Part shown: piece by piece, positions 30,249 through 64,000 of the stretch
Layout: each line of letters begins with the position of its first letter
Numbering within the stretch: position 1 is the stretch's first letter
Source of the DNA: a virus
Virus record (IMG/VR): IMGVR_UViG_3300036444_000030
Location: 5,965 to 69,964 of that record
Length of the DNA stretch: 64,000 nucleotides
Reading direction: 5' to 3' (one strand)
Notes under the pieces: generated by a model
The model's database searches: none
What the model saw: only the letters and a program-made list of their open reading frames with translations
Told to the model about the DNA's origin: nothing
Position numbers and translations under genes: made by a program

Positions 30249-30518
30249 TCAGGGGTCGAGCATCGTCATGCCGAGCGCGGCCATGTACGTCTGCAGAATG
30301 GTTTCTTCTTCGAGACGCTCGTTGGCGTCCTTCTTTCGAAGGCGGATGATGGTGCGGATTGCCTTGGTGTCGTAACCGCGACCCTTGGCCTCACCCATCA
30401 CGTCTTTGATGTCGCCCTGGATCGCCGCCTTTTCTTCCTCAAGCCGCTCTACGCGCTCGATAATCTGGCGCAATTCTGCGGAAGCGACCGTGTCGCCGCT
30501 GTTGTGTCCGATAGACAT
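30249..30518 (-). CDS. gapR: GapR-like nucleoid-associated protein (DUF2312/UPF0335)
   Basis: [15 protein letters not shown]...[21 protein letters not shown]...Y..ALGM signature. Confidence 0.92.
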
Positions 30519-30577: not shown

Positions 30578-31213
30578 CTACGTGGCCATAGCGTATTCCA
30601 TTGTAGAAAGCATCGCGAACTCGTCGGATGCTTCCTCGTCGCCTGCAAGGCCACCGTCGATGAACGATTTGGCGGATTGGAAGTGTGCAGGTTTTTGCCC
30701 GAGATCCTCCAATTTCGCCGACAGTGCCCCAGCGGTAAAGCATTGAGCTTCTGCGATAACCACATCTGTCAACGTTGGTAGACGAGAATGCTTTGCTTCT
30801 GTGTAAGGCTCCACGCCTTCCGGGTACTTCTCAAACATCTCGTCAACAACGCGCTGAAGTTCGGTACGAATCGCTTCCAGATTGGCTTTCGGCGGACGGT
30901 CGTCGTTCAACTGCTGCTGGATCATCGCGTCGCGCAGAACCACGAGGCTGCTGATCGCTTTGGTGATGTGGGAGAGTTGGCTATCGGCATCGATGTCTTC
31001 GCCTTCCCACCACTGCATGATGTGACCCGTTGCAGCGTCGACGTAGACCGATGCCTTGACGCCGGAAACCCGGTAGTTGTGCCGGCCGTATTTCGCCGCG
31101 CCTTCCAGCATAGCGATGCCGACTTCGGCCATGACAGTCATTGGAATAGTGGCAAACTGGCGCCATTTCTTGATACCGATGCCGTCCTTGGGGTTCGTTT
31201 CCTTCGTGCTCAT
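30578..31213 (-). CDS. dATP/dGTP diphosphohydrolase-domain protein (DUF5664-like)
   Basis: NPKD..G..K, GAAKYGRHNYR, WWEGEDIDADSQLSH motifs. Confidence 0.85.
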   Translation of the reverse strand: MSTKETNPKDGIGIKKWRQFATIPMTVMAEVGIAMLEGAAKYGRHNYRVSGVKASVYVDAATGHIMQWWEGEDIDADSQLSHITKAISSLVVLRDAMIQQQLNDDRPPKANLEAIRTELQRVVDEMFEKYPEGVEPYTEAKHSRLPTLTDVVIAEAQCFTAGALSAKLEDLGQKPAHFQSAKSFIDGGLAGDEEASDEFAMLSTMEYAMAT

Positions 31214-31422
31214 GAGCAGGCCTCCGCAACCATTGCCTCGCGGACGCGATCGTAGGCTTCCCACACACTCTCGTTGTGCACCGGCTGGACGTTGTGCTCA
31301 ACACCATCGCGCATGCGTACGGTAACGTGCCCGGAGCTATAGTAGCACTGGATGCTCTGGACGTAACGGGGATTGACGCTGGTGGTTTTCGTAATCTCGA
31401 CGAGCGCCATGGAAATCACCAC
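31210..31422 (-). CDS. Small hypothetical protein
   Basis: Fills the gap between coupled genes. Confidence 0.6.
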   Translation of the reverse strand: MVISMALVEITKTTSVNPRYVQSIQCYYSSGHVTVRMRDGVEHNVQPVHNESVWEAYDRVREAMVAEACS

Positions 31423-32159: not shown

Positions 32160-32759
32160 TCAAGATAAAAGTGAAACGATTGGCCGCAGATCGTCTATCC
32201 ACGTGACCAAGGGATCGCCGGGCGTCTCGTGGGATCGATTGTGTGATCGTCGAACCATAAAAGACTTGTGGCCGCAATCGTGACCGGAGACGGCGTGGTT
32301 GTAGTTGTCTTCGATCCAGACACCGCGCTCGAGGATACCGAGCCACTTCTTTTTGCTTTCGCCGAGCGGCAGGCAAATCACCTGTTCGAAGATGTCGCCG
32401 AATATCAGATCGAGGTTGAGCTTCCGCCTGGCGACGATGAGGGGGTTGTCCGAGCAACTGGTCAACACTGTCAGCCTGTGGCCCATCTCCTTGAGCGCTG
32501 TGACGTTCTCTACGGCATGCGGGCATGCTTCGAGATACTGGAACTGGGAGCTGTGATTGAAGCCGACGACCATCTCGCGCGACGCTGCCGGCGTCAGGCC
32601 GAGCCATCCGCTCATGTCCCACGAATCCGGCAATCCTTCGATAGGACGGTTCTCGACGGCTGAAACAAACCGTCTGAACGCGCCGAGCCAGTCTAAGAGC
32701 ACGTCGTCGCAATCGAGGATGATGTGAAGGTTTCGGTTCTGGCGATGGAAGTCGATCAT
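32160..32759 (-). CDS. HAD-family 5'(3')-deoxyribonucleotidase-like protein
   Basis: ILDCDDVLLDW, LTS and WIEDN HAD motifs. Confidence 0.85.
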   Translation of the reverse strand: MIDFHRQNRNLHIILDCDDVLLDWLGAFRRFVSAVENRPIEGLPDSWDMSGWLGLTPAASREMVVGFNHSSQFQYLEACPHAVENVTALKEMGHRLTVLTSCSDNPLIVARRKLNLDLIFGDIFEQVICLPLGESKKKWLGILERGVWIEDNYNHAVSGHDCGHKSFMVRRSHNRSHETPGDPLVTWIDDLRPIVSLLS

Positions 32760-33682
32760 GCCTGCAACTCCAGTTGACGGCGGCGCTGGCGGAAGCCGAC
32801 GAAGTTGCCGTGTTCTTCGCTGTGCTTCCAGCAGGCGGCGGTTTTGAATGCCGGTCGCTCGAAATGATAAGCCAGGTCTTCGAATTCATCAGCCTGCGCG
32901 ACGTGCTCGAACGGGCTGGCATGGAATGGTTTTGTGTGCAGCTTGTCGTAGATCGCGACGGCGCGGTCGAAGGTCATATCGAAGCCGTCGGTGGTTTTAT
33001 AGGACGTGCTGGCGCAGCGGGCGACGGAGAGTTTTTGCAGGATCTCGACGCCGATGTTGTGATCCCCACCACTTGCCTCATAGAGGAGATCTTCGTCGAA
33101 GCTGGTGATGAACGGCAGATGCCATTTACCAGGATTAAGCGTCTGCACCGTCGACTCGTCTTCAAGGCACTTCCGGATTTCGCGAGCGAGCATCTGGATA
33201 TGCGGCTCGGCGTCCTTGTGGTCGCGCAATTCGAGGAAGTTGTCCCATTCCGTCGACGACACGAGCACAGTGATATGGAGGAACGGTTCGAGCAGGCGGT
33301 TGATGACCTGCTTGTGGTAGCCGGCTGCTTCGAAGGCACGGGCAATACGGATCGCTTCATCACGTGCCCATAGCCATGCCCGTTCGCGCGAAACGCCTCC
33401 CGGCACAATGAGACGCAATCGTGCATCACATTCCTGGTCAGCCTGCATACCCTTCTGCGCCGCTCCCCAATGGATGGGCATGGCGGTGTCGGCGAGGATG
33501 TCGTCGATCATTTTCTTCACGGGGATAGCGCGACTGCTGGCAGCATTCCGGCTGAACACGCGATGAGTGAGGAATTCGGCATGGATGAACCGAGGGTAGC
33601 GCAAGAGAAGCGTCGAGAGCACCTTGTCAGGCGCACTGGCATTACGTGATCGCAGAATAGTCTTGGCGGAGATGGTGGTCAT
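32756..33682 (-). CDS. thyX: FAD-dependent thymidylate synthase, phage type
   Basis: AEFLTHRVFSRNAASSRAIP, HKQ..NRLLEPF, HASPFEH. Confidence 0.9.
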   Translation of the reverse strand: MTTISAKTILRSRNASAPDKVLSTLLLRYPRFIHAEFLTHRVFSRNAASSRAIPVKKMIDDILADTAMPIHWGAAQKGMQADQECDARLRLIVPGGVSRERAWLWARDEAIRIARAFEAAGYHKQVINRLLEPFLHITVLVSSTEWDNFLELRDHKDAEPHIQMLAREIRKCLEDESTVQTLNPGKWHLPFITSFDEDLLYEASGGDHNIGVEILQKLSVARCASTSYKTTDGFDMTFDRAVAIYDKLHTKPFHASPFEHVAQADEFEDLAYHFERPAFKTAACWKHSEEHGNFVGFRQRRRQLELQA

Positions 33683-33912: not shown

Positions 33913-34731
33913 CTAAAGATCGAGCGCGCTGCGCAGCTCGGCGTACTGGTCGGGTGTGAGGCTGATCGTGTACGGACCTTCTTCGACATGGAAAATTTCA
34001 GCGGCTTCGAACAACGTCGTCAGCCGGTCCTTGAGGGTTTTTGGCTTTTCGCCGGCATCCAGGTGCTTCGCGGTGGCGCGCTTTTTCCCTTCCGCCTGCG
34101 CCTTGTCGACTGCACGCGTCAGATCGCCAGCGGCTTTAACACCGTCGCCGCCGTGCTTCTTCAACGTGGCCATGGCGAGCGTCGCGGCGACTTGGCCTGT
34201 GGCCACCAGGTTGGTGACGGCAGCCGGCGCGGCCTGCAGTTCGAGAAGTTCGACGATCCACTGGCGAGCAAGCCCGGTCTTCTGCTGGATGTCTTTTTCC
34301 GTCCAGCCGAGGTCGATGAGACGCTTGAAGACGCGCGCCTGTTCGATCGGTGTCAGCGGTTTGCCGGAATTGCGGACGATCTGGCTGAATACACGATCAG
34401 CCTCGCTCGAATACCGATCCTCCGTCTGCACCGGTACGCTTTTGATCTCGGCTCCGAGATGCTCGATCGCGTACATGGTGGCGCCGTGGCGGCGATGACC
34501 GTCGGAAATGAAAGCCTTGCCATCTTCCGTGTAGACGGTGAGCGGCTGTTTGATGCCGACCTGCGAGATGGATTCCGCCAGCGCCAAGTCTTCGGGATCA
34601 TCGGCATTGAAGTTGATCGAGCGGCAATTCCAATCGACCTTCACGTTCAGGTCGTGCGGGTCCATGCGGTAGATGTCGGAGCGGCCGACGGCGAGCGATT
34701 TGATGACGCCTTGGTTTGATGCAGCGGTCAT
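33913..34731 (-). CDS. ParB/Srx N-terminal-domain protein with HTH
   Basis: LAESISQVGIKQPL, SDGHRR, LTPIEQA motifs. Confidence 0.85.
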   Translation of the reverse strand: MTAASNQGVIKSLAVGRSDIYRMDPHDLNVKVDWNCRSINFNADDPEDLALAESISQVGIKQPLTVYTEDGKAFISDGHRRHGATMYAIEHLGAEIKSVPVQTEDRYSSEADRVFSQIVRNSGKPLTPIEQARVFKRLIDLGWTEKDIQQKTGLARQWIVELLELQAAPAAVTNLVATGQVAATLAMATLKKHGGDGVKAAGDLTRAVDKAQAEGKKRATAKHLDAGEKPKTLKDRLTTLFEAAEIFHVEEGPYTISLTPDQYAELRSALDL

Positions 34732-36623: not shown

Positions 36624-36643
36624 CGTCTCCTAAACAGAATTGC

Positions 36644-41376: not shown

Positions 41377-41790
41377 TCATCGTATGCTCCGCACCGGTCT
41401 GAGGTTGCGGCCGGTCGCCCCGCGCTTGGCGGGATAGCTGCGGATTGCATGACGAACGGTGGTATGGTCACGACTGCCGAGGTAGGCGCCGATCTCGACA
41501 AGGCTCGACGTGGTTCTGCGGACCATCCAATAGCAGCAGGCCTGCCGCACGAGGACGACGTGCCTTTGCATGCGGTCGCTCGTTATCAGGTCGGCAGAAA
41601 GCCCTGTACGCCTGCAGAACAGTGCGAGGATGCGTTCCTTCGTCGTCATCAGGCGCGTAGGCTCGACGACGGGTGCGGCCAACTTCGGTTTCGCGGCTAT
41701 GTTGACGACCTTGGGTGCGCCGTAGATGCGCCGACGGACATCGGCATAGCGCGCCAGCAGCTCCTCGGCTGTTTTTGGTTCAGGGCTCAT
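41377..41790 (-). CDS. DnaA C-terminal (domain IV-like) HTH protein
   Basis: RQACCY...SLVEIGAYLGSRDHTTVRHA. Confidence 0.88.
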   Translation of the reverse strand: MSPEPKTAEELLARYADVRRRIYGAPKVVNIAAKPKLAAPVVEPTRLMTTKERILALFCRRTGLSADLITSDRMQRHVVLVRQACCYWMVRRTTSSLVEIGAYLGSRDHTTVRHAIRSYPAKRGATGRNLRPVRSIR

Positions 41791-42300
41791 AGCAGCCCCA
41801 TGATCGAGGCAGCCGAGGCGACGGAGAGGGTGAGGAGTAACGTCACCGTGCTTTCGATCACCGCGTTGATGCGATCTGCTGCGCCCCGATGACGGTCGAA
41901 ACAGGCGGTCGCACGTTCGAGAAGTAACTGTGCGTCGCGGACATCGCGTTTAAGGCTCATCACTGATCCCTCTCGAAACGGCCGCTGAGCACGCCAAAGA
42001 GGAATGCGGTCAGAGCGCCGGTTGCGAATGCGTAAAGAAGCATGCTCATTTCGAATTCCTCGTAAAACGTGAAAGTCAGGGCGCGAAATTGAGCCGCCCG
42101 GCTGCAAGCTGACGAGCAATGCGGCTATTCTGCCTCGTTGACGAATGCGGATACTTTCGACCCGTGCGACGGGTTTTCGGGCGGCTGAAATCGGCTGCCC
42201 GGTGCAGTGGAACGACCTGCATGCCGCGCGCCAAGTCGATAGTGGAGCCCAACGAGGCGAGGAGGGCGGTTGCTGCGGAAAAAATCGATCGTCTCATCAT
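41787..42300 (-). CDS. Short hypothetical ORFs (41787-41960, about 41957-42049, 42076-42300)
   Basis: RBS-preceded ATGs downstream of a leftward promoter near 42335-42363. Confidence 0.5.
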
Positions 42301-42436
42301 GGTCACGTCTCCTTTGAATTTCACGTTTAATGAGCAATATTGCACGATATTGCAGGAAGTCAATCGAGAAGTGAAAATAATTGATATTTCTCCGAGGCCC
42401 CGGTATCCCTATTTCTCCGAGGGCAGGGAGACAGGG

Positions 42437-42907
42437 ATGATCAGATTTCTCCGAGGTGCGCTTGTTGTCGCACTTCTCGCAAGTTGCACGTCAACGCCGG
42501 GCACCGTGGATGATGTCCACACCGGTATGAAGGGCAAGCACTCCGCTTTCTATTCCGTTCATACAGGCCTTCTGGACAACCTGAACGCAGCGGCAATTAT
42601 AGGCACTCAGAAAGGTGTTACCAAATACGGGATCGCCGTCCGCTACACGTCAACCGGCGTCGGATGGGCATCCTTCCATGAAGCCTGGTCCTTCGGTGAA
42701 AAGTTACCCTATGCTGTAGTACGCGAGCAGTTGGCTGGCTGCGGCGGTGGAAATTGTTCGATCATTGAAGAGGGGTCGATCGAATTGACCAAGGACCAGT
42801 TCGAGCAAGCCGCTAAGACAGGTTTCGAATTCAAACTAGTCGGCAAAAACCGCAGCTTTGTGGCTAAAATGCCTGCATCGGTGTTTCAGGAGGCCTTGGC
42901 CCAATGA
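42437..42907 (+). CDS. Moron lipoprotein, 156 aa
   Basis: MIRFLRGALVVALLASC lipobox; RBS GGAG; opposite strand to the flanking early genes. Confidence 0.82.
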   Translation: MIRFLRGALVVALLASCTSTPGTVDDVHTGMKGKHSAFYSVHTGLLDNLNAAAIIGTQKGVTKYGIAVRYTSTGVGWASFHEAWSFGEKLPYAVVREQLAGCGGGNCSIIEEGSIELTKDQFEQAAKTGFEFKLVGKNRSFVAKMPASVFQEALAQ

Positions 42908-43392
42908 TGAGATTTCTCCGAGGGGTTTTTCTGGCAACAGTTGTTTCCACTTCCGCCTTGGCGGCGGAGCCATTCTCGGCATCAGATTTTTCGCCCATGG
43001 TCAAATTTTCGGTGGACGGTCCCGCTCATGATCCTGCCTTCCTTTCAAAGATGGCGAACATTCTCGTGAAGTATGGGGCCACCGAGGACGACGCATATGC
43101 GACCATTAAAACACTTCTTCCTTTTGATCCGGCAGATATGAGCAACCTCGTACTTGCCTCGGGACTGCTAAGTGCAATGGACCGAACCTCCACGAGAACG
43201 GCGTCGCGCCGTGTTGCGAAAGCGTTTTCCGGTGACGTGGATGGCGTGAGGGCGCTGGATGACGAACTGAATTTCTTGACGGCCGACCAGTACACCGAAA
43301 TGAAAAAACTGGAAGACGCCGGCGCGATACAAGGCGCAAAAAGGTTGGCCCTAGGTCTCTTGGTGAAGAGACTGGAAACAGCTTTCGAGTGA
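42904..43392 (+). CDS. Exported protein homologous to a segment of the tape measure protein
   Basis: Sec signal MMRFLRGVFLATVVSTSALA; 22/29 identical core to the tape measure segment encoded at 10797-10883. Confidence 0.85.
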   Translation: MMRFLRGVFLATVVSTSALAAEPFSASDFSPMVKFSVDGPAHDPAFLSKMANILVKYGATEDDAYATIKTLLPFDPADMSNLVLASGLLSAMDRTSTRTASRRVAKAFSGDVDGVRALDDELNFLTADQYTEMKKLEDAGAIQGAKRLALGLLVKRLETAFE

Positions 43393-43687
43393 TATGTAGA
43401 TTTCTCCTAGGTGCAGATTTCTCCGAGGGCGTTTTAACGTAGTCGGATACAGGTGTTGTAGAGCGACCGGTTTTTCGCGACGAAATCCGCCATGATATGT
43501 GATAACATAACACATGAAATAAAAATTTCACGATAGAGTTGAAATTTATTTTCTTAGATGATAGGGCTTGTAATATGCGCCGATTTGCGTTTCCCTAATC
43601 GTGCCGTGACGGAGTCGCGGTGCGGGTTGAGAGCCGCCAAATTGGAGCGCACAAGCGCCTTAGAGAACCGTCTACGGGCGCTTTTTC

Positions 43688-43768
43688 TATGGTCGGGCGC
43701 AATGGGAAGCCGTGAGGCTTGCCGGTACTCCAATTCCGGTCTCTCAACCCGTTGACGCCCGGCCACCA
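43688..43768 (+). ncRNA. C4-type antisense RNA (P1 C4 / P4 CI family)
   Basis: ATGGTCGGGCG...CGCCCGGCCACC closing stem; AGCC-GTGA-GGCT hairpin; CTCCAATT and CTCTCAACCC complementary to flanking target boxes. Confidence 0.85.
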
Positions 43769-43814
43769 CGATTGAGAGCGTGGAACCGGGTTCACCTCAA
43801 TTGGAGAACTCACT

Positions 43815-44357
43815 ATGCAAAACGTTCTTATCCCTGCAGAGTCCCTCATTGATTTTGACGATGAGCCGCGTCTTCTCGATACCGAATTGGCTTCCCATCT
43901 CGAATTCAAACGTTCGTACGATATCCGGGAACTAATCAACCGCAATCGAGAGGAGCTTGGGATGTACGGCCCACTACCCGTACGGCGCGGGCAGTCTAGA
44001 GGGCAAGCATTCACGGCCTATTATCTAAACGAAGGGCAGGCGCTTGTAATATGCGCACTATCCCGCACGCCGAAGGCCGCGCAAGTCCGCAAGCTCCTGA
44101 TTGACGTTTTCATGGCATACCGGCAGGGCAAACTTGTTCACGTCAAAGAACATCGCCGTTCATTGCCGCAACGGCGACGGAATCAAATCCAATTCTCATT
44201 TGAGGAGAACTTGGAGACGGTTTACGCCAGCACTCAATCCACCGAAGAACTCATGGCCGGGCTCATGACGCGGCTGCAAAATCTGGAAATAGCGGCCTTT
44301 GGCGAACCTCAGAACGCACGGCAGATTGTGCCCACGGGTCACATCAGGGGCTACTAA
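43815..44357 (+). CDS. Antirepressor-like DNA-binding protein
   Basis: IRELINRN.EEL, YYLNEGQALVIC..SRTPKAAQVR..LIDVF; directly after the C4 RNA. Confidence 0.78.
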   Translation: MQNVLIPAESLIDFDDEPRLLDTELASHLEFKRSYDIRELINRNREELGMYGPLPVRRGQSRGQAFTAYYLNEGQALVICALSRTPKAAQVRKLLIDVFMAYRQGKLVHVKEHRRSLPQRRRNQIQFSFEENLETVYASTQSTEELMAGLMTRLQNLEIAAFGEPQNARQIVPTGHIRGY

Positions 44358-44542
44358 TGGAGACGAGCCTATTGCGAGTCGGCGACGTGTCGAAAGTCAC
44401 CACGTTATCCCGCGCCGAGATTTACCGTCGCATTCGTGCGGGAACCTTTCCCAAACAAACCCGCATCTCGTGGCGGTTTGCAGTCTGGAAAAGCAGCGAC
44501 ATTGAGAAATGGATTGCTGAAACCACGGACCAATCAAAATAG
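44357..44542 (+). CDS. AlpA-family regulator / excisionase-like protein
   Basis: LLRV.DV...T.LSRAEIYRRI..GTFPK...AVW..SDIEKWI. Confidence 0.9.
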   Translation: METSLLRVGDVSKVTTLSRAEIYRRIRAGTFPKQTRISWRFAVWKSSDIEKWIAETTDQSK

Positions 44543-44546
44543 ACTA

Positions 44547-44576
44547 AGCCCGGCCTTTGAAGCCGGGCTTTTCTTT
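44547..44576. terminator. Terminator between convergent units
   Basis: AAGCCCGGC-CTTTGAA-GCCGGGCTT followed by TTCTTT. Confidence 0.75.
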
Positions 44577-45750
44577 AACTCATAGCGTTCGATAGCGCCG
44601 CAAGCCCATACAACACAAGGCCAATCGACACGGGCATGAAATACCATTTCCCGCGCAAGCGTTCCCATAGACCTGGATCTGGCGCATACGTCGCTTCGCT
44701 CGAGACCATTGGCGCGGTTGCAGGCTGAACGACAGGCCGCGACACGCCCACGCTGTGCAGCGGCTTGGAGCCGCGCGACACTGCAACCTTGCAAGCCGGC
44801 ATAGGAGCGCCGGCAGCATTCGGAACAGACACAATCGCTTGCCCAGTTCCAAGTCCTGCAATGTCGGCAGCCGTGATATTGCCCGGCATGGTATCGGCTG
44901 CAGCCTTCAAGGCCTTTTGGTGGACCGGAGTCGCGCCGCGCAAGGCGTGCTGAATCCGCGTCGCCAATTGCCCGCTAATGACGTGCGGCAGGTCCGACGG
45001 CGCTTGAGTCACATAAATGAGGCCGACTCCCTTGGATCGAATTAGCCGCGTGATTTGCTCTATCCGCTGCACAATGGCCGGGCTTGCGCCGTCGAAAACC
45101 AAATGCGCTTCATCGATCAAAACCATGAGTCCAGGCGCGCCAGCGTCGCCAATCTCGCCAAGGCCGCGATAGAGCGAATCCAGCACATGCGCGACAAATG
45201 CACCATAGAGGCCGGGCAGGTGGGTTAGTCCTGAGGCCGCATAGACCGTTATAGCTTTCGTGTCGCGTGGATCATGCCGGGCATTGCCGAACGCCCACGT
45301 AGCGCCGCGCTCGAGACGCAACATGGCACGTTGAACGGCAGCAACCGAAACAGGCGATATCAGGCCATAGGAGTCGGAAAGGTTCGCCCGCGTGGCGTCA
45401 TTCAATAGCTGGCGCAAGTCCTGCAGCGTGGCGACGGCGCGGCCGATATCTTCCGCCCATGCAAGGGCAATCGCCAACGCGCCCGCTTGCGCCTCAGACA
45501 GATTAAGGGCACGTGCGATCAAGTCCGCCCCCAAATCATCGATGCGCATTTGCGGGCATATCAGAGTTGAGCCTAGCGACTCCAAGTCGCCTTTCGCGTC
45601 CAGCACCAAAACCGGACACGGGCAGCGTTCCGCGATCGCTCCTAGTGTCGTGGTTTTACCCGTGCCCGTAGCGCCAAAAATGCCGACATGGCGCGACAGA
45701 TACCGATATGGAATCTGTGCGCCTGGTCCGATGGAAAGGGCGTAAGTCAT
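44575..45750 (-). CDS. HerA/FtsK-like ATPase (DUF853-like) with C-terminal membrane helix
   Basis: GATGTGKT, DAKGDL, IDEAHLVF, RLIRSKGVG...TQ.P.DLP, RIQHALR. Confidence 0.88.
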   Translation of the reverse strand: MTYALSIGPGAQIPYRYLSRHVGIFGATGTGKTTTLGAIAERCPCPVLVLDAKGDLESLGSTLICPQMRIDDLGADLIARALNLSEAQAGALAIALAWAEDIGRAVATLQDLRQLLNDATRANLSDSYGLISPVSVAAVQRAMLRLERGATWAFGNARHDPRDTKAITVYAASGLTHLPGLYGAFVAHVLDSLYRGLGEIGDAGAPGLMVLIDEAHLVFDGASPAIVQRIEQITRLIRSKGVGLIYVTQAPSDLPHVISGQLATRIQHALRGATPVHQKALKAAADTMPGNITAADIAGLGTGQAIVSVPNAAGAPMPACKVAVSRGSKPLHSVGVSRPVVQPATAPMVSSEATYAPDPGLWERLRGKWYFMPVSIGLVLYGLAALSNAMS

Positions 45751-46560
45751 TACCGCCCCCAACGTCTGACTTGCGCGGCAACGTCTCGGCCCTGAATAAC
45801 AAGGGGTTCGCCTGTCAATTCAACACGAAAAATGGCAACGCAGCGGGTGCCGGAACAATCTGTCTCGGATAGTTCCCAGTTGGACGGGAAAACCGCTTTA
45901 CCGGTATCCGTCGCTTTCCAGAGACGTTCAGGGTTGTTGCAGGGGAACGCTATTTTCATATCTGACCATGGCAAGGCTATATCTCTGACTCCGTTGGCGT
46001 GAAATTCCCGCAACGGCCGGATTGCGCCAGCCGTTCAAGGAACGTCACGCCGTGGCGTAGTCGCTCATGCTTTGGTGAAGGAAGGCGGGCAGGGCGGTTT
46101 CATCGCTTGACTCGTCCGCTGCGTCATATTGATCGCGCCATGTGGTGGCGTCGTCGCCCTGCAAAAAGAATTCGCGTCCGTCCGCTTCATTGGTGACGGC
46201 ATAGGCCAGCCCATTGCCATATGAGGTGATAGCGAAGTTTGCGATATGCCAAGTTACCTGTTTCATGGTTGCCCCTCAATCGGCCATGCCGTCATGGCGT
46301 TGATAGTGGTGCGGGTTTTCGGCCATGGCCGAAGGGTCCGAGTCTTCGTTTTCCTCAATCTCGGTTTCAGCCTGGAAATGCAGCGCTGCCCGATTCAATT
46401 CGGCGAGAAAGTCCGTTTCGCTTTCCGCGCAATAGTGCATGAGGTTGCAAAGCAGGTCCGATATCGCGTCACCCTCATCAGTGCGGGTTACCCTTATAAA
46501 GGCGTCAATTGCTACCCGCGCCCATTCTGCCCGTTGTGTGTTGTCGACTTCCCGAAACAT
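45750..46560 (-). CDS. Three short early hypothetical ORFs (45750-46013, 46045-46266, 46276-46560)
   Basis: Tight packing with RBSs; last has AISDLLCNLMHYC motif. Confidence 0.65.
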
Positions 46561-61759: not shown

Positions 61760-61839
61760 CTTTCACATTAGATGTGACATTTCATGACGGTGAATCGGGG
61801 CGCTTGACGTCTTGATATTCCGTTTTGAAAGGATTCACT

Positions 61840-62520
61840 GTGAGCGTTCCCTTCCGGACACCTGACAAACAGGTGCATCCTGAGTTTGCCCGTCGAATGG
61901 TACAGGCTGCTGACAGCAATTACCAGGTTCCGGCACCCAACGAAGGTCGCCTCCGCTGGTTCTCAGAGCAGTTCGAGCAGCGCGGACACAAGGTTTCCAT
62001 GGAGACCATCCGGAAGTGGTTCGCCGGCATGACGGTGCCGCGAGCGAAATTGCTCATCCCACTGGCCGAAATTCTCAAGGTTGATGCGGGCTGGCTTGCG
62101 GCCGGAACACCTGCGAAGCTCACGGGTGCTCAGCAGCGCGCGAACGTAATGGCCGAGCAGGGCGCTACGAACGTTATCGCCGGCTTCGTTCAGATGGACG
62201 GTGGTCAAGCTGCGTTTCCCGGCCCCAACGACCGGGAGGCACGTGATAAGTCGATAGACATGCACGCGATCATCCGCGGGGCGAAATACGATATTACCAT
62301 CACGACACTTGTTCAGGGGCAATTCAAAGTCCCGGTCTCTGCGGCGGAGAACATCATTCTGGCGGTAGCCCGCGAGCCTACGCCCGGTTTTGGTGTGAAG
62401 GTGCTGGAGATCGACTGGGCCCGAGGTCTCGAAGTCGGAAAACTGGAGAACGGCGCGCTCATTCTCGACGACAACCTCGAAAACTGGCGAGAAGTAAAAT
62501 CGTTCACTGAGAGGCTTTAG
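61840..62520 (+). CDS. HTH (XRE-like) regulator, probable immunity repressor
   Basis: VSMETIRKWFAG...PR...LAEILKV...WL..G; operator at 61762-61778 in its promoter; next to att. Confidence 0.75.
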   Translation: MSVPFRTPDKQVHPEFARRMVQAADSNYQVPAPNEGRLRWFSEQFEQRGHKVSMETIRKWFAGMTVPRAKLLIPLAEILKVDAGWLAAGTPAKLTGAQQRANVMAEQGATNVIAGFVQMDGGQAAFPGPNDREARDKSIDMHAIIRGAKYDITITTLVQGQFKVPVSAAENIILAVAREPTPGFGVKVLEIDWARGLEVGKLENGALILDDNLENWREVKSFTERL

Positions 62521-63367: not shown

Positions 63368-64000
63368 TCAGAACTTCACGCCGAGACCCACTTTCACAGT
63401 GTGCTGGTCGACATCGGTGTTGATACCGAAGATGTCCTTGTCGCTATAGTCGTTGTATCGATATTCCAGCCTGCCGAACACGTTGTCGGTGAAGGCATAG
63501 TCCAGACCCGCGCCGACGGTATAGCCGTTGAACGTGGTGCTGTCCTTGCCGGCTCCGGGCGTTTCGATGAAGCCGCGTGTCGCGGTCCAGCCAGCGGTGG
63601 CATAGAGCAGGGCGTGGTCGAAGGCATAGCCGACGCGGCCGCGAACGGAACCCTGCCAGTCGGTACCGATCTGCACGCCGGCATAGTCATTGTCGTTCCA
63701 GTTATAATCGACATCACCTTCGATGCCGAGCACCAGATTATTGTCGAACTGGTAATTGTAACCAACGAAGGCGCCGAGAATGCCGCCATCGAAATTATCC
63801 GAGGCGACCGGGCCGCCGGCCGAAAAATCGCCATTTGCCCAGCCCGCGCCGCCTTGAATACCAAGATAGGGGCCAGACCAGGTGAAGACCGGCAGGGTTT
63901 CCTGCGCGACCGGAGGTGCGGGCGTTTCGTAGACGGCATCCGCGGCCATTGCGGTGCTGGCCGACAGGGCCAGGAGTGACGTTACGATCAGCGTTTTCAT
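63368..64000 (-). CDS. Host outer membrane protein, Omp25/RopB family
   Basis: Signal peptide; FTWSGPYLG, GYNYQF, RGRVGYAFD, EYRY; terminal Phe. Confidence 0.93.
   Translation of the reverse strand: MKTLIVTSLLALSASTAMAADAVYETPAPPVAQETLPVFTWSGPYLGIQGGAGWANGDFSAGGPVASDNFDGGILGAFVGYNYQFDNNLVLGIEGDVDYNWNDNDYAGVQIGTDWQGSVRGRVGYAFDHALLYATAGWTATRGFIETPGAGKDSTTFNGYTVGAGLDYAFTDNVFGRLEYRYNDYSDKDIFGINTDVDQHTVKVGLGVKF

What the first reader, a model, noticed from the sequence alone, without database searches (positions are those of the whole stretch)
42386..43428. Six ATTTCTCCGAGG repeats punctuate the moron and encode both signal-peptide starts
Seen: copies at 42386 and 42411 (inside and just after a TTGATA-17-TATCCC promoter-like element), at 42445 and 42912 (encoding RFLRG in MIRFLRG and MMRFLRG, the starts of two otherwise unrelated genes), and at 43400 (one mismatch) and 43417, right after the last stop. 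All are in the same orientation, and I noticed none elsewhere. Inference: either cassette boundaries, where recombination swaps or adds exported-protein genes behind a common leader, or binding sites for a dedicated DNA/RNA regulator. The downstream pair looks like empty slots.
Basis: partly seen in the sequence, partly recalled or inferred. Interest (0 to 1): 0.75.

Follow-up and report, generated by a model that had tools for sequence, protein, structure and literature searches.

The report
Polar 12-mer repeats joining phage gene cassettes
A short one-directional DNA repeat marks the edges of a swap-prone accessory-gene slot in a whole group of temperate phages of Alphaproteobacteria, and in this prophage it also supplies the first codons of two secreted proteins.

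Summary
ATTTCTCCGAGG occurs 5 times exactly and once with one mismatch, all on the + strand, only at 42386-43428 of the 69,964-bp provirus (6 found against 0.40 expected). It is not private to this prophage. It is the core of a ~17-bp repeat (WTTTCTCYGRSG plus a 5' flank) found in every one of 13 related phage genomes examined, including the cultured Rhodobacter RcD phages. All 79 of 79 strict copies lie on the strand of the structural genes. The copies cluster at the edges of accessory-gene slots.

Close relatives match the window up to a copy and then carry different cargo. The window and its relative L135/L142 differ by three indels, each running from one copy to another. In this sub-lineage the joint lies in frame, so four genes of three unrelated protein families start ATGATNAGATTTCTCCGRGG or a decayed form of it. 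More distant ORF A homologues have other N-termini.

So the cassette-boundary reading is supported as an evolutionary pattern. What keeps the motif conserved is unknown. My inference is a polar protein-binding site, with exchange by short-homology recombination. No dedicated recombinase, hairpin or promoter was found. This is a new variant of known kinds (T4 PeSLs, mycobacteriophage stoperators).

The parts
42386..42397 (+). Copy 1 of the repeat. It is the left joint of the accessory slot.
   Evidence: Exact match. Homology to G005/L012, L135 and L136 ends at 42394-42397 (alignment A4).
42411..42422 (+). Copy 2, in the untranslated leader
   Evidence: Exact match. It has decayed in the homologous leader of L142.
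42381..42466 (+). Shared leader unit: TTGAT, copy 1, copy 2, Shine-Dalgarno GGGAGA, ATGATCAG, copy 3
   Evidence: 75% identical to the leader of a different gene (gene Z) in L135 (blastn; alignment).
42445..42456 (+). Copy 3, which is codons 3-7 (part of MIRFLRG) of ORF A
   Evidence: Homology to the L135 gene-Z leader ends about 10 nt after it.
42437..42907 (+). ORF A, a 156-aa lipoprotein-like cargo gene (LASC lipobox read by eye)
   Evidence: 17 homologues in Alphaproteobacteria. Only the closest ones carry the motif-encoded N-terminus. No Pfam or PHROG family.
42912..42923 (+). Copy 4, which is codons 3-7 of ORF B. It is the joint between the ORF A and ORF B cassettes.
   Evidence: Homology of ORF A to its L135 counterpart runs to 42923 and then stops.
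42904..43392 (+). ORF B, a 162-aa signal-peptide protein. Its ATGA start overlaps the ORF A stop.
   Evidence: Only 3 near-identical homologues were found, all starting M(M)RFLRG. It is absent from L012, L135 and L136.
43400..43428 (+). Copies 5 (one mismatch) and 6, 17 nt apart. They form the right terminal cluster of the slot.
   Evidence: This is the only stretch between 42394 and 44574 that still matches G005 (43400-43430, 94%). The same tgcagATTTCTCCGRGG unit occurs twice in Rhodobacter phage RcCWillis.
42336..42363 (-). Leftward promoter-like site of the early operon, beside copy 1
   Evidence: TTGACT-16-AATATT with TG.
42048..42082 (+). Copy of a second repeat family (operator/RBS-like, TTCCTC-N7-GTGAAA). 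It is another mosaic joint.
   Evidence: the repeat finder families D1/D2. Contigs of runs X8 and X10 replace 42080/42084-42303 with other DNA.
43526..43544 (+). Palindromic operator-like site TTTCAC-N7-TTGAAA ahead of the C4/ant module
   Evidence: One mismatch to TTTCAC-N7-GTGAAA.
43685..43770 (+). C4 antisense RNA gene. It belongs to a C4-ant-alpA insert that the close relatives lack.
   Evidence: Rfam RF01695, 66 bits. The stretch 43430-44574 has no match in L012, L135 or L136.
43815..44542 (+). Anti-repressor-like gene (43815-44357) and AlpA-family gene (44357-44542)
   Evidence: phrog_63 Ant, E 4e-4. PF05930, E 2e-13.
44575..45762 (-). HerA_C/DUF853-type ATPase. It is the conserved right neighbour of the slot.
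   Evidence: PF05872, E 3e-72. Homologues lie next to motif clusters in 10 clade genomes.

Best explanation
The 12-mer is the conserved core of a ~17-bp, strictly one-directional intergenic repeat. Its consensus is roughly GGT(C/G)(T/C)(A/G)(A/T)-TTTCTC(C/T)G(A/G)(G/C)G. The repeat is a hallmark of a clade of temperate, Casjensviridae-related siphophages of Alphaproteobacteria. Copies stand in small clusters at the edges of the accessory-gene slot(s) next to the early control region.

Shown: the copies are module joints. Related phages are collinear up to a copy and then carry different cargo up to the next copy. The window and its nearest relatives differ by indels that each run from one copy to another. 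In the window's sub-lineage the joint lies inside the reading frame. The repeat and its 5' flank then supply the start codon and residues 3-7 (RFLRG, a positively charged signal-peptide n-region) of four genes from three unrelated exported-protein families.

Inferred: the motif is kept unchanged across phages whose proteins are only 30-70% identical because it is the binding site of a sequence-specific protein that works in one orientation. Most likely it acts as a polar transcription block or insulator between cargo genes and dangerous neighbours such as the anti-repressor. Cassette gain, loss and exchange would then happen as a by-product, through short-homology recombination between copies, as described for T4 PeSLs. 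I do not think a dedicated integrase is involved. The binding protein is not identified.
For: Enrichment and uniqueness.

Conservation: the tandem-pair pattern found 5 further IMG/VR contigs. Searches with the HerA protein found 10 more relatives. Every one of the 13 clade genomes examined has 2-14 strict copies, with 0 reversed-pattern controls. All 79 of 79 copies lie on the tail-gene strand, although the HerA orientation flips (6 same, 4 opposite). The cultured phages RcCWillis and RcMcDreamy carry the repeat at two homologous places. The paper on these phages notes right-end repeats that correlate with gene diversity (PMC8601537, passages read).

Joints: homology with G005, L135 and L136 ends at 42394-42397. 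G005 matches again only at 43400-43430. L135 matches 42381-42466 (leader) and 42437-42923 (ORF A). So every internal breakpoint lies at a copy.

Cassettes flanked by copies are also seen in G004, G006, G007 and G001. Upstream genes often end in the TGA of the flank cTGATTTTCTC (8 cases).

The N-terminus is secondary. Of 17 ORF A homologues, only the 4 closest start M[IM][RK]F[LF]RG; the others have different n-regions, mostly about 4 residues longer.

The motif is not common in hosts: 284 scattered hits in 201 genomes of one host family, about 1.4 per genome (this includes the unpublished genome G094 with 2 hits, on which nothing rests). The one genome with 8 copies on a single contig carries a clade prophage.

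A second repeat family (operator/RBS-like) also coincides with mosaic joints. This fits recombination at short conserved regulatory sequences in general.

No intrinsic terminator separates ORF B from the anti-repressor module, which leaves room for a protein-dependent block.
Against: No binding protein was identified. No HTH protein is shared by all motif-bearing genomes at the blastp level. The ParB-like protein is missing from most of them.

The conserved CI-like repressor (61825-62520) more plausibly uses the palindromic TTTCAC-N7-GTGAAA sites. One such site overlaps its own promoter in 5 of 6 genomes.

Breakpoints must fall next to any conserved island, so the coincidence with copies is partly built in.

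Two relatives at 95-99% identity (runs X8, X10) keep the whole moron unchanged, so exchange is not frequent.

Some cargo genes between clusters lie on the opposite strand (G005, L136, G001). This does not fit a simple block that works in the direction of transcription.

Twelve to twenty base pairs is short for RecA-type recombination.
Confidence: 0.5

Rival explanations
1. The repeats are purely regulatory: asymmetric operators or stoperator-like roadblocks for a phage regulator. On this view they play no part in recombination, and the breakpoints coincide with them only because selection preserves the sites while everything around them turns over.
For: The motif is asymmetric. It shows strict polarity (79 of 79). 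It is intergenic. It sits in the divergent early control region of the RcD phages. It lies between the moron and the anti-repressor module, where no terminator is present. Stoperators are 13-bp asymmetric, orientation-dependent sites (PMC9283540 and PMC3029335, passages read).
Against: Three motif-to-motif indels separate the window from L135. Gene stops and starts are built from the repeat's flank. Both are hard to obtain without crossing-over at the copies. The sites are clustered at 1-3 loci rather than dispersed. The clade repressor appears to have palindromic operators.
Confidence: 0.2
2. The repeats belong to a dedicated site-specific cassette system, integron-like but with 12-bp polar sites. 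A phage-encoded recombinase or nuclease would excise and insert motif-bounded cassettes.
For: The cassette units run from motif to motif. The core sequence is conserved over large phage distances. The conserved HTH protein next to the integrase has a C-terminal domain with a Holliday-junction-resolvase-like (PD-(D/E)XK) fold (pLDDT 93; Foldseek hit to Hjc, E 6e-5, TM 0.54-0.57 normalised to the target).
Against: No recombinase gene lies in or beside the locus. The sites have no inverted-repeat core or foldable hairpin. The number of copies per joint varies from 1 to 7. The resolvase-like domain lacks a conserved (D/E)xK in the expected strand.
Confidence: 0.08
3. The repeats are polar recognition sites for a DNA-handling machine. 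They could be iterons of an origin, a partition centromere, or KOPS-like loading sites for the neighbouring membrane-anchored HerA/FtsK-type ATPase.
For: The repeats are direct and tandem, with absolute polarity relative to the genome backbone. A HerA-type ATPase lies within 0.3-6 kb in 10 clade genomes. AT-rich DNA follows copies 5-6. The unrelated phage G003 carries a palindromic version four times inside a replication-like ORF.
Against: Spacings of 15, 17, 25 and 27 nt are not in helical phase. DnaA boxes are not enriched (6 found, 6.4 expected). The primase-helicase gene is 8 kb away. The clusters are split by cargo genes. G001 and G002 have the motif, but no HerA homologue was found in them (G002 is a fragment).
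Confidence: 0.1
4. The repeats are leftovers of duplicated gene starts. On this view one ancestral signal-peptide 5' end was copied repeatedly, and the non-coding copies are decayed gene starts with no function of their own.
For: Copy 5 with its flank (ATGTAGATTTCTCCTAGGTGC) resembles the ORF A start (ATGATCAGATTTCTCCGAGGTGC), and copy 6 resembles the ORF B start. The ORF A homologue P0002 and the ORF B homologues share MRFLRGALLATV.
Against: In the clade, 69 of 74 copies have no gene start at them. The motif is present and intergenic in distant phages that lack these genes. Polarity and core sequence are conserved far beyond neutral expectation.
Confidence: 0.04

Closest known systems
PeSL regulatory cassettes of T4-type phages (Arbiol et al. 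2010, PMC2839356, abstract read; Comeau et al. 2014, PMC4122927, listing only)
   Same: Both are short conserved motifs repeated in hyperplastic, ORFan-rich regions. In both, insertions, deletions and replacements between close relatives are bounded by copies, with recombination between copies as the proposed driver.
   Different: PeSLs are about 50-bp composites of a sigma-70 promoter and a terminator stem-loop. Here there is no promoter consensus and no hairpin. The unit is 12-17 bp and strictly polar, and in one sub-lineage it lies inside coding sequence. Mini-circles were not tested.
Stoperators of Cluster A mycobacteriophages (PMC9283540 and PMC3029335, passages read; PMC6550527, listing only)
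   Same: Both are asymmetric 12-13-bp sites, mostly intergenic, in a fixed orientation, with many copies per genome and variant consensus sequences between related phages.
   Different: Stoperators number 20-34 per genome and are dispersed, one per intergenic gap. Here there are 2-14 copies in tandem clusters at 1-3 loci. The binding protein is unknown, and the clade's CI-like repressor seems to use palindromic sites.
Repeat-rich right end of the Rhodobacter capsulatus RcD phages (Rapala et al. 2021, PMC8601537, passages read; its S5 Fig could not be seen)
   Same: This is the same phage clade and the same repeat. [quoted passage not shown]
   Different: In the passages I read, the paper does not define the motif, its polarity, its spread to Rhizobiales-type prophages or its use as a gene start.
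Integron attC / gene cassettes (recalled from general knowledge; no call)
   Same: Both involve promoter-poor cargo genes delimited by repeated sites and arranged in an array.
   Different: There is no IntI-type integrase next to the array and no imperfect inverted repeat that folds as single-stranded DNA. The sites are direct 12-mers.
Asymmetric C1 operators and the immI (c4-icd-ant) module of phage P1 (recalled; the C4 RNA itself was found)
   Same: A C4 antisense RNA stands ahead of an anti-repressor gene just downstream of copies 5-6. P1 C1 binds asymmetric operators.
   Different: The C4-ant module is an insert that the closest relatives lack, and they keep the repeats anyway. The C4 loops pair with other sequences, as read by eye.

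Membership tests
PeSL-type recombinogenic regulatory cassette | Copies flank non-essential ORFs in variable regions, and indels between close relatives are bounded by copies | tested here: met
PeSL-type recombinogenic regulatory cassette | Each unit contains a strong sigma-70-like promoter and a stem-loop terminator | tested here: not met
   No rightward promoter or terminator at the copies. Folds are no better than shuffles (z -0.68, +1.24, +0.47).
PeSL-type recombinogenic regulatory cassette | Recombination between nearby copies yields mini-circles | not testable with these tools
   Only assembled contigs were available for the runs.
Stoperator (Cluster A mycobacteriophages) | Asymmetric site of about 13 bp in one orientation | tested here: met
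   Asymmetric 12-mer. All 79 of 79 copies lie on one strand relative to the backbone.
Stoperator (Cluster A mycobacteriophages) | Orientation follows the local direction of transcription | tested here: inconclusive
   Co-directional with the rightward operon in the RcD phages and with the moron here. Some cargo genes in G005, L136 and G001 are antisense.
Stoperator (Cluster A mycobacteriophages) | Twenty or more sites dispersed through short intergenic gaps of the whole genome | tested here: not met
   2-14 copies, clustered at 1-3 loci.
Stoperator (Cluster A mycobacteriophages) | Bound by the immunity repressor; blocks elongation | not testable with these tools
   The candidate repressor has palindromic sites at its own promoter.
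Integron cassette array | IntI tyrosine recombinase with attI and Pc next to the array | tested here: not met
   No recombinase domain in the neighbouring genes.
Integron cassette array | attC sites are imperfect inverted repeats | tested here: not met
   Direct repeats with no dyad in the window copies.
Origin iterons | Tandem direct repeats beside an initiator gene, an AT-rich region and DnaA boxes | tested here: inconclusive
   The direct repeats and an AT-rich stretch are present. DnaA boxes are not enriched. The neighbouring protein is a DnaA_C-domain HTH protein only, and it is restricted to the 4 closest relatives.
Moron | Extra gene(s) absent from close relatives, inserted between conserved genes | tested here: met
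   ORF B is absent from L012, L135 and L136. ORF A is present only in L135.
Moron | Own promoter and terminator | tested here: not met
   Neither passes the scan.

The most novel reading that the evidence does not exclude
The repeat is the recognition site of a dedicated phage cassette-capture system. Polar 12-bp sites would let the phage take up foreign ORFs and, where the joint is in frame, fuse them to a ready-made start codon and signal-peptide n-region (M-I/M-R-F-L-R-G). That would act as a gene trap, turning captured sequences into exported lysogenic-conversion proteins. The enzyme could be the conserved HTH protein with a resolvase-like fold, or the HerA-type ATPase.
Probability: 0.1. 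Interest if true: 0.85.

Novelty: new variant of a known kind. Interest (0 to 1): 0.6.

Why it matters
If this holds, it gives a concrete, sequence-defined handle on how accessory (moron) genes are shuffled in a widespread group of temperate phages of Rhizobiales and Rhodobacterales. A 12-mer could predict where cargo sits and where exchange happens. It also shows a regulatory or joint sequence being co-opted as the start of secreted proteins. The clade includes cultivable, harmless Rhodobacter capsulatus phages, so the polarity, the binding factor and the copy-dependent recombination are all directly testable.

Tried and rejected
1. RNA element. Folds around the copies are no better than shuffles. 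Rfam finds only the C4 RNA. Rejected.

2. Target of the C4 RNA. The C4 loops pair with sequences at 43630-43660 and 43775-43810 (read by eye), not with the 12-mer. Rejected.

3. ParB-like protein (33913-34731) as the binder. It was found only in G000, G001, G002 and G005 and in none of 9 other records. Rejected as a universal partner.

4. CI-like repressor (61825-62520) as the binder. Its own promoter carries the palindrome TTTCAC-N7-GTGAAA in 5 of 6 genomes, so it more likely uses that family. One point is left open: the half-site TTTCAC differs from TTTCTC by a single base.

5. Host Chi-like or other genome-wide host motif. There are about 1.4 hits per host genome, scattered. Rejected.

6. 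The genome-contig scan with a degenerate tandem pattern returned 120 loci. Nearly all were unrelated tandem repeats or chance pairs in many phyla. Only L065 is a clade prophage. The degenerate 11-mer scan of 5 genomes was likewise uninformative, and the HerA hits there are 500-590-aa chromosomal homologues.

7. G003 carries the motif as a 20-bp palindrome inside an ORF but shares only one protein with the clade. I treated it as a separate or coincidental case.

8. C-to-T covariation at position 7 between RcCWillis and RcMcDreamy looked like a phage-encoded specificity, but both variants coexist within clusters. Dropped.

9. Sequencing runs. No RNA holder is listed. Contigs of run X9 end at 42444 and at 43428/43448, next to copies 3 and 6, but contig ends are not counted as evidence.

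10. The search for related loci with ORF A in viral contigs found no relative.

11. A literature search for the motif strings found 71 papers. The 15 listed are primers or unrelated topics.

13. Supplementary figures of PMC8601537 could not be read. They may already show these repeats.
Full report
**Observation.** The 12-mer ATTTCTCCGAGG stands at 42386, 42411, 42445, 42912 and 43417, and with one mismatch at 43400. All copies are on the + strand. At up to one mismatch the window holds 6 matches against 0.40 expected, and 0 of 100 shuffles reach 6. The whole 69,964-bp IMG/VR provirus record that contains the window has these 6 forward copies, none in reverse and none for the reversed-pattern control.

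Copies 3 and 4 are codons 3-7 of ORF A (42437-42907, MIRFLRG..., lipobox-like LASC) and ORF B (42904-43392, MMRFLRG...). The two proteins are alike only in the first 16-20 residues. Copies 5 and 6 follow the ORF B stop. The TTGATA-17-TATCCC pair exists but is a poor promoter. The scan finds only a leftward TTGACT-16-AATATT at 42363-42336, and the only terminator before the hairpin at 44546-44570 is none at all.

**Surroundings.** The locus is a small rightward island inside a long leftward early region.
- To the left lie a small ORF (42076-42303), a DnaA_C-domain HTH protein (41377-41790) and an exported TAXI/NMT1-like protein.
- To the right lie a palindromic operator-like site (43526-43544), a C4 antisense RNA (43685-43770, Rfam 66 bits), an anti-repressor-like gene, an AlpA gene and a convergent HerA_C-type ATPase.
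- Elsewhere the phage encodes a primase-polymerase/VapE helicase, DUF2800, an Enc34-type ssDNA-binding protein, ThyX, a ParB-like HTH protein and methylases.
- It shares six proteins of the early region, and the structural module, with Rhodobacter phage RcCWillis, which its GenBank record places in Casjensviridae.

**The motif is a clade feature.** A scan of IMG/VR for two copies 3-30 nt apart found five further contigs. Searches with the HerA protein found ten more relatives. I fetched the full records and counted [AT]TTTCTC[CT]G[AG][CG][GT].
- Each of the 13 clade genomes has 2-14 copies (G000, G001, G002, G004-G011, RcCWillis, RcMcDreamy). Reversed-pattern controls gave 0 everywhere.
- All 79 copies lie on the strand of the tail genes. 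The HerA gene is co-oriented in 6 genomes and opposite in 4.
- G012, whose HerA is only about 37% identical, has no copy.
- G003 is an unrelated lambdoid contig sharing one protein with the clade. It carries a palindromic version inside an ORF, and I set it aside.
- Aligning 106 clustered cores gives an extended unit with three common 5' flanks (tgcAGA-, tcTGAT-, gtCTA-) and a 3' end RSG.
- In RcCWillis and RcMcDreamy the clusters sit in the divergent early control region and directly after the stop codon of the last gene of the rightward operon.
[quoted passage not shown] Its S5 Fig could not be seen.

**The motif is not a host motif.** In 201 genomes of one host family the 12-mer occurs 284 times, as scattered singles, about 1.4 per genome (one of these genomes, G094, is unpublished and nothing rests on it). 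The only genome with 8 copies on one contig carries a clade prophage.

**The copies are module joints.**
- The close relatives G005 (L012), L135/L142 and L136/L143 are 82-90% identical to the window on both sides of the slot.
- In all three, the left block ends at 42394-42397, inside or at the end of copy 1 (alignment A4).
- G005 then carries 1.24 kb of other genes: two small membrane ORFs and an exported protein on the opposite strand. It matches the window again only at 43400-43430, which is copies 5-6, and then from HerA onward.
- L136 carries yet other cargo, including a weak GNAT-like ORF.
- L135 has a 1.17-kb insert after the left copy. Next comes a 75-nt leader homologous to 42381-42466, driving a different exported gene (gene Z, MIRFLRGTILMASIAL...). 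Then comes an ORF A homologue (69% nt) whose start has decayed to MIKFFRG, and then two copies.
- The window and L135 therefore differ by three indels, each running from one copy to another: the 1.17-kb insert, gene Z and ORF B.
- The C4-ant-alpA module is a further insert to the right of copy 6. The three relatives have an 8-bp microsatellite there instead.
- Motif-flanked cassettes are also seen in G004, G006, G007 and G001.
- In 8 cases the upstream gene ends in the TGA of the flank cTGATTTTCTC.

There is a caveat. A conserved island between variable DNA will always look like a breakpoint, so part of this coincidence is built in. The motif-to-motif indels are the stronger argument.

Two further relatives, at 95-99% identity in runs of other studies, keep the moron intact. 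They replace 42080/42084-42303 instead, with the left breakpoint in a copy of a second repeat family. That family (TTCCTC-N7-GTGAAA, operator/RBS-like, 7 copies) also coincides with blastn breakpoints at 36625, 42088, 46566 and 49184. Mosaic joints at short conserved regulatory sequences thus seem to be general in this phage.

**Coding use is secondary.** Only 5 of 74 clustered copies in the clade have an ATG within 24 nt upstream and 60 or more codons running through them. Two of those five are the window's. Of 17 ORF A homologues, only the four closest start M[IM][RK]F[LF]RG. The others have unrelated n-regions, mostly about four residues longer. ORF B has only three near-identical homologues, all with the motif start. 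The repeat was therefore joined to pre-existing exported-protein genes, within the n-region of their signal peptides.

**What keeps the motif?** A 12-nt sequence that stays unchanged among phages whose proteins are 30-70% identical must be recognised by something.
- It is not an RNA structure, not a promoter or terminator and not the C4 target.
- No dedicated recombinase is nearby.
- No HTH protein is shared by all carriers at the blastp level, and the ParB-like protein is not universal.
- The conserved 231-aa HTH protein (61825-62520; next to the integrase in RcCWillis) has an almost invariant recognition helix (ETVRKW). Its C-terminal domain has a Holliday-junction-resolvase-like fold (pLDDT 93; Foldseek E 6e-5 to Hjc), without a conserved (D/E)xK.
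- That protein's own promoter overlaps the palindrome TTTCAC-N7-GTGAAA in 5 of 6 genomes. The same palindrome recurs at early promoters, so this protein probably uses the palindromic family. I note that its half-site differs from TTTCTC by one base.

My inference is a polar protein-binding site, plausibly an insulator. In the window it would separate lysogen-expressed cargo from the anti-repressor, where no terminator exists. Cassette exchange by short-homology recombination between copies would be a by-product. The rivals are pure operators, a dedicated cassette recombinase, polar sites for replication, partition or the HerA-type translocase, and relics of duplicated gene starts. They are weighed in their own sections.

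**Comparison and novelty.** Functionally the closest systems are the T4-type PeSLs and the Cluster A stoperators.
- PeSLs share copy-bounded indels in ORFan-rich regions, but they are promoter-terminator composites.
- Stoperators share asymmetry and orientation dependence, but they are dispersed and bound by a known repressor.

The locus meets some defining features of each and fails others, so I file it under neither. The repeats in RcD phages were noticed in print but, in the passages I read, not defined. A search for the motif strings found nothing relevant among the 15 listed of 71 papers.

Noticed in passing
window 43685-43770 (+), with 43815-44357 and 44357-44542: A P1-type C4 antisense RNA (Rfam RF01695, 66 bits) stands ahead of an anti-repressor-like gene and an AlpA gene. 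Complementary target pairs (gttgagag / aattggag) lie both upstream and at the ant ribosome-binding site. The whole module is an insert that is absent from the three closest relatives.
   Followed up: partly
window 61825-62520 (+), with operator-like site 61761-61779: The conserved clade repressor candidate is a CI-type HTH fused to a domain with a Holliday-junction-resolvase (PD-(D/E)XK, Hjc-like) fold. The model has pLDDT 93, and 577 homologues were found. The canonical catalytic (D/E)xK is not conserved. The -35 of its promoter overlaps a TTTCAC-N7-GTGACA palindrome.
   Followed up: partly
window 32140, 36640, 36678, 42056, 43526, 46568, 49197, 50943, 50981, 61761 and others: A second, palindromic repeat family, TT(T/C)CAC-N7-GTGAAA, gives 54 matches at up to 3 mismatches against 24 expected. 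It lies at early promoters and at the ribosome-binding sites of leftward genes. It is conserved from the Rhodobacter RcD phages to this prophage and coincides with several mosaic breakpoints.
   Followed up: partly
L012 11415-11515; L135 and L136 at the homologous place; L008 12120-12230: 8-bp microsatellites, (GCAGCAGG)n in the close relatives and (ATACGCAT)n in G002, stand a short distance downstream of the terminal motif cluster. The window has the C4-ant insert at that place.
   Followed up: no
window 44575-45762 (-): The HerA_C/DUF853 ATPase ends in a hydrophobic stretch (WYFMPVSIGLVLYGLAALSNAMS) that looks like a membrane anchor. It is the non-structural protein most consistently found near the motif clusters.
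   Followed up: no
window 30578-31264 (-), 32756-33682 (-), 30249-30518 (-): There is a dATP/dGTP diphosphohydrolase N-terminal domain (PF18909) and a ThyX-like gene, which may hint at nucleotide-pool remodelling. There is also an 89-aa protein present in all clade genomes that, from memory, resembles the GapR/DUF2312 nucleoid protein. It is annotated 'DsbA-like' in the RcD records.
   Followed up: no
L014 9322-9460 (G003): An unrelated lambdoid-type contig carries four copies of a 20-bp palindrome, CCTCGGAGATTTCTCCGAGG, inside the linker of a 307-aa ORF next to a CI/S24 repressor gene. The arrangement resembles lambda origin iterons inside gene O.
   Followed up: partly
window 63368-64000 (-): An outer-membrane beta-barrel (OMP_b-brl) gene lies at the right edge, beyond the repressor gene. 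It is either host flank or another cargo gene.
   Followed up: no
L136 8213-8971 (+): One alternative cargo of the slot is a weak GNAT-like 174-aa ORF preceded by a 75-aa ORF. The layout is reminiscent of a GNAT toxin-antitoxin pair.
   Followed up: no
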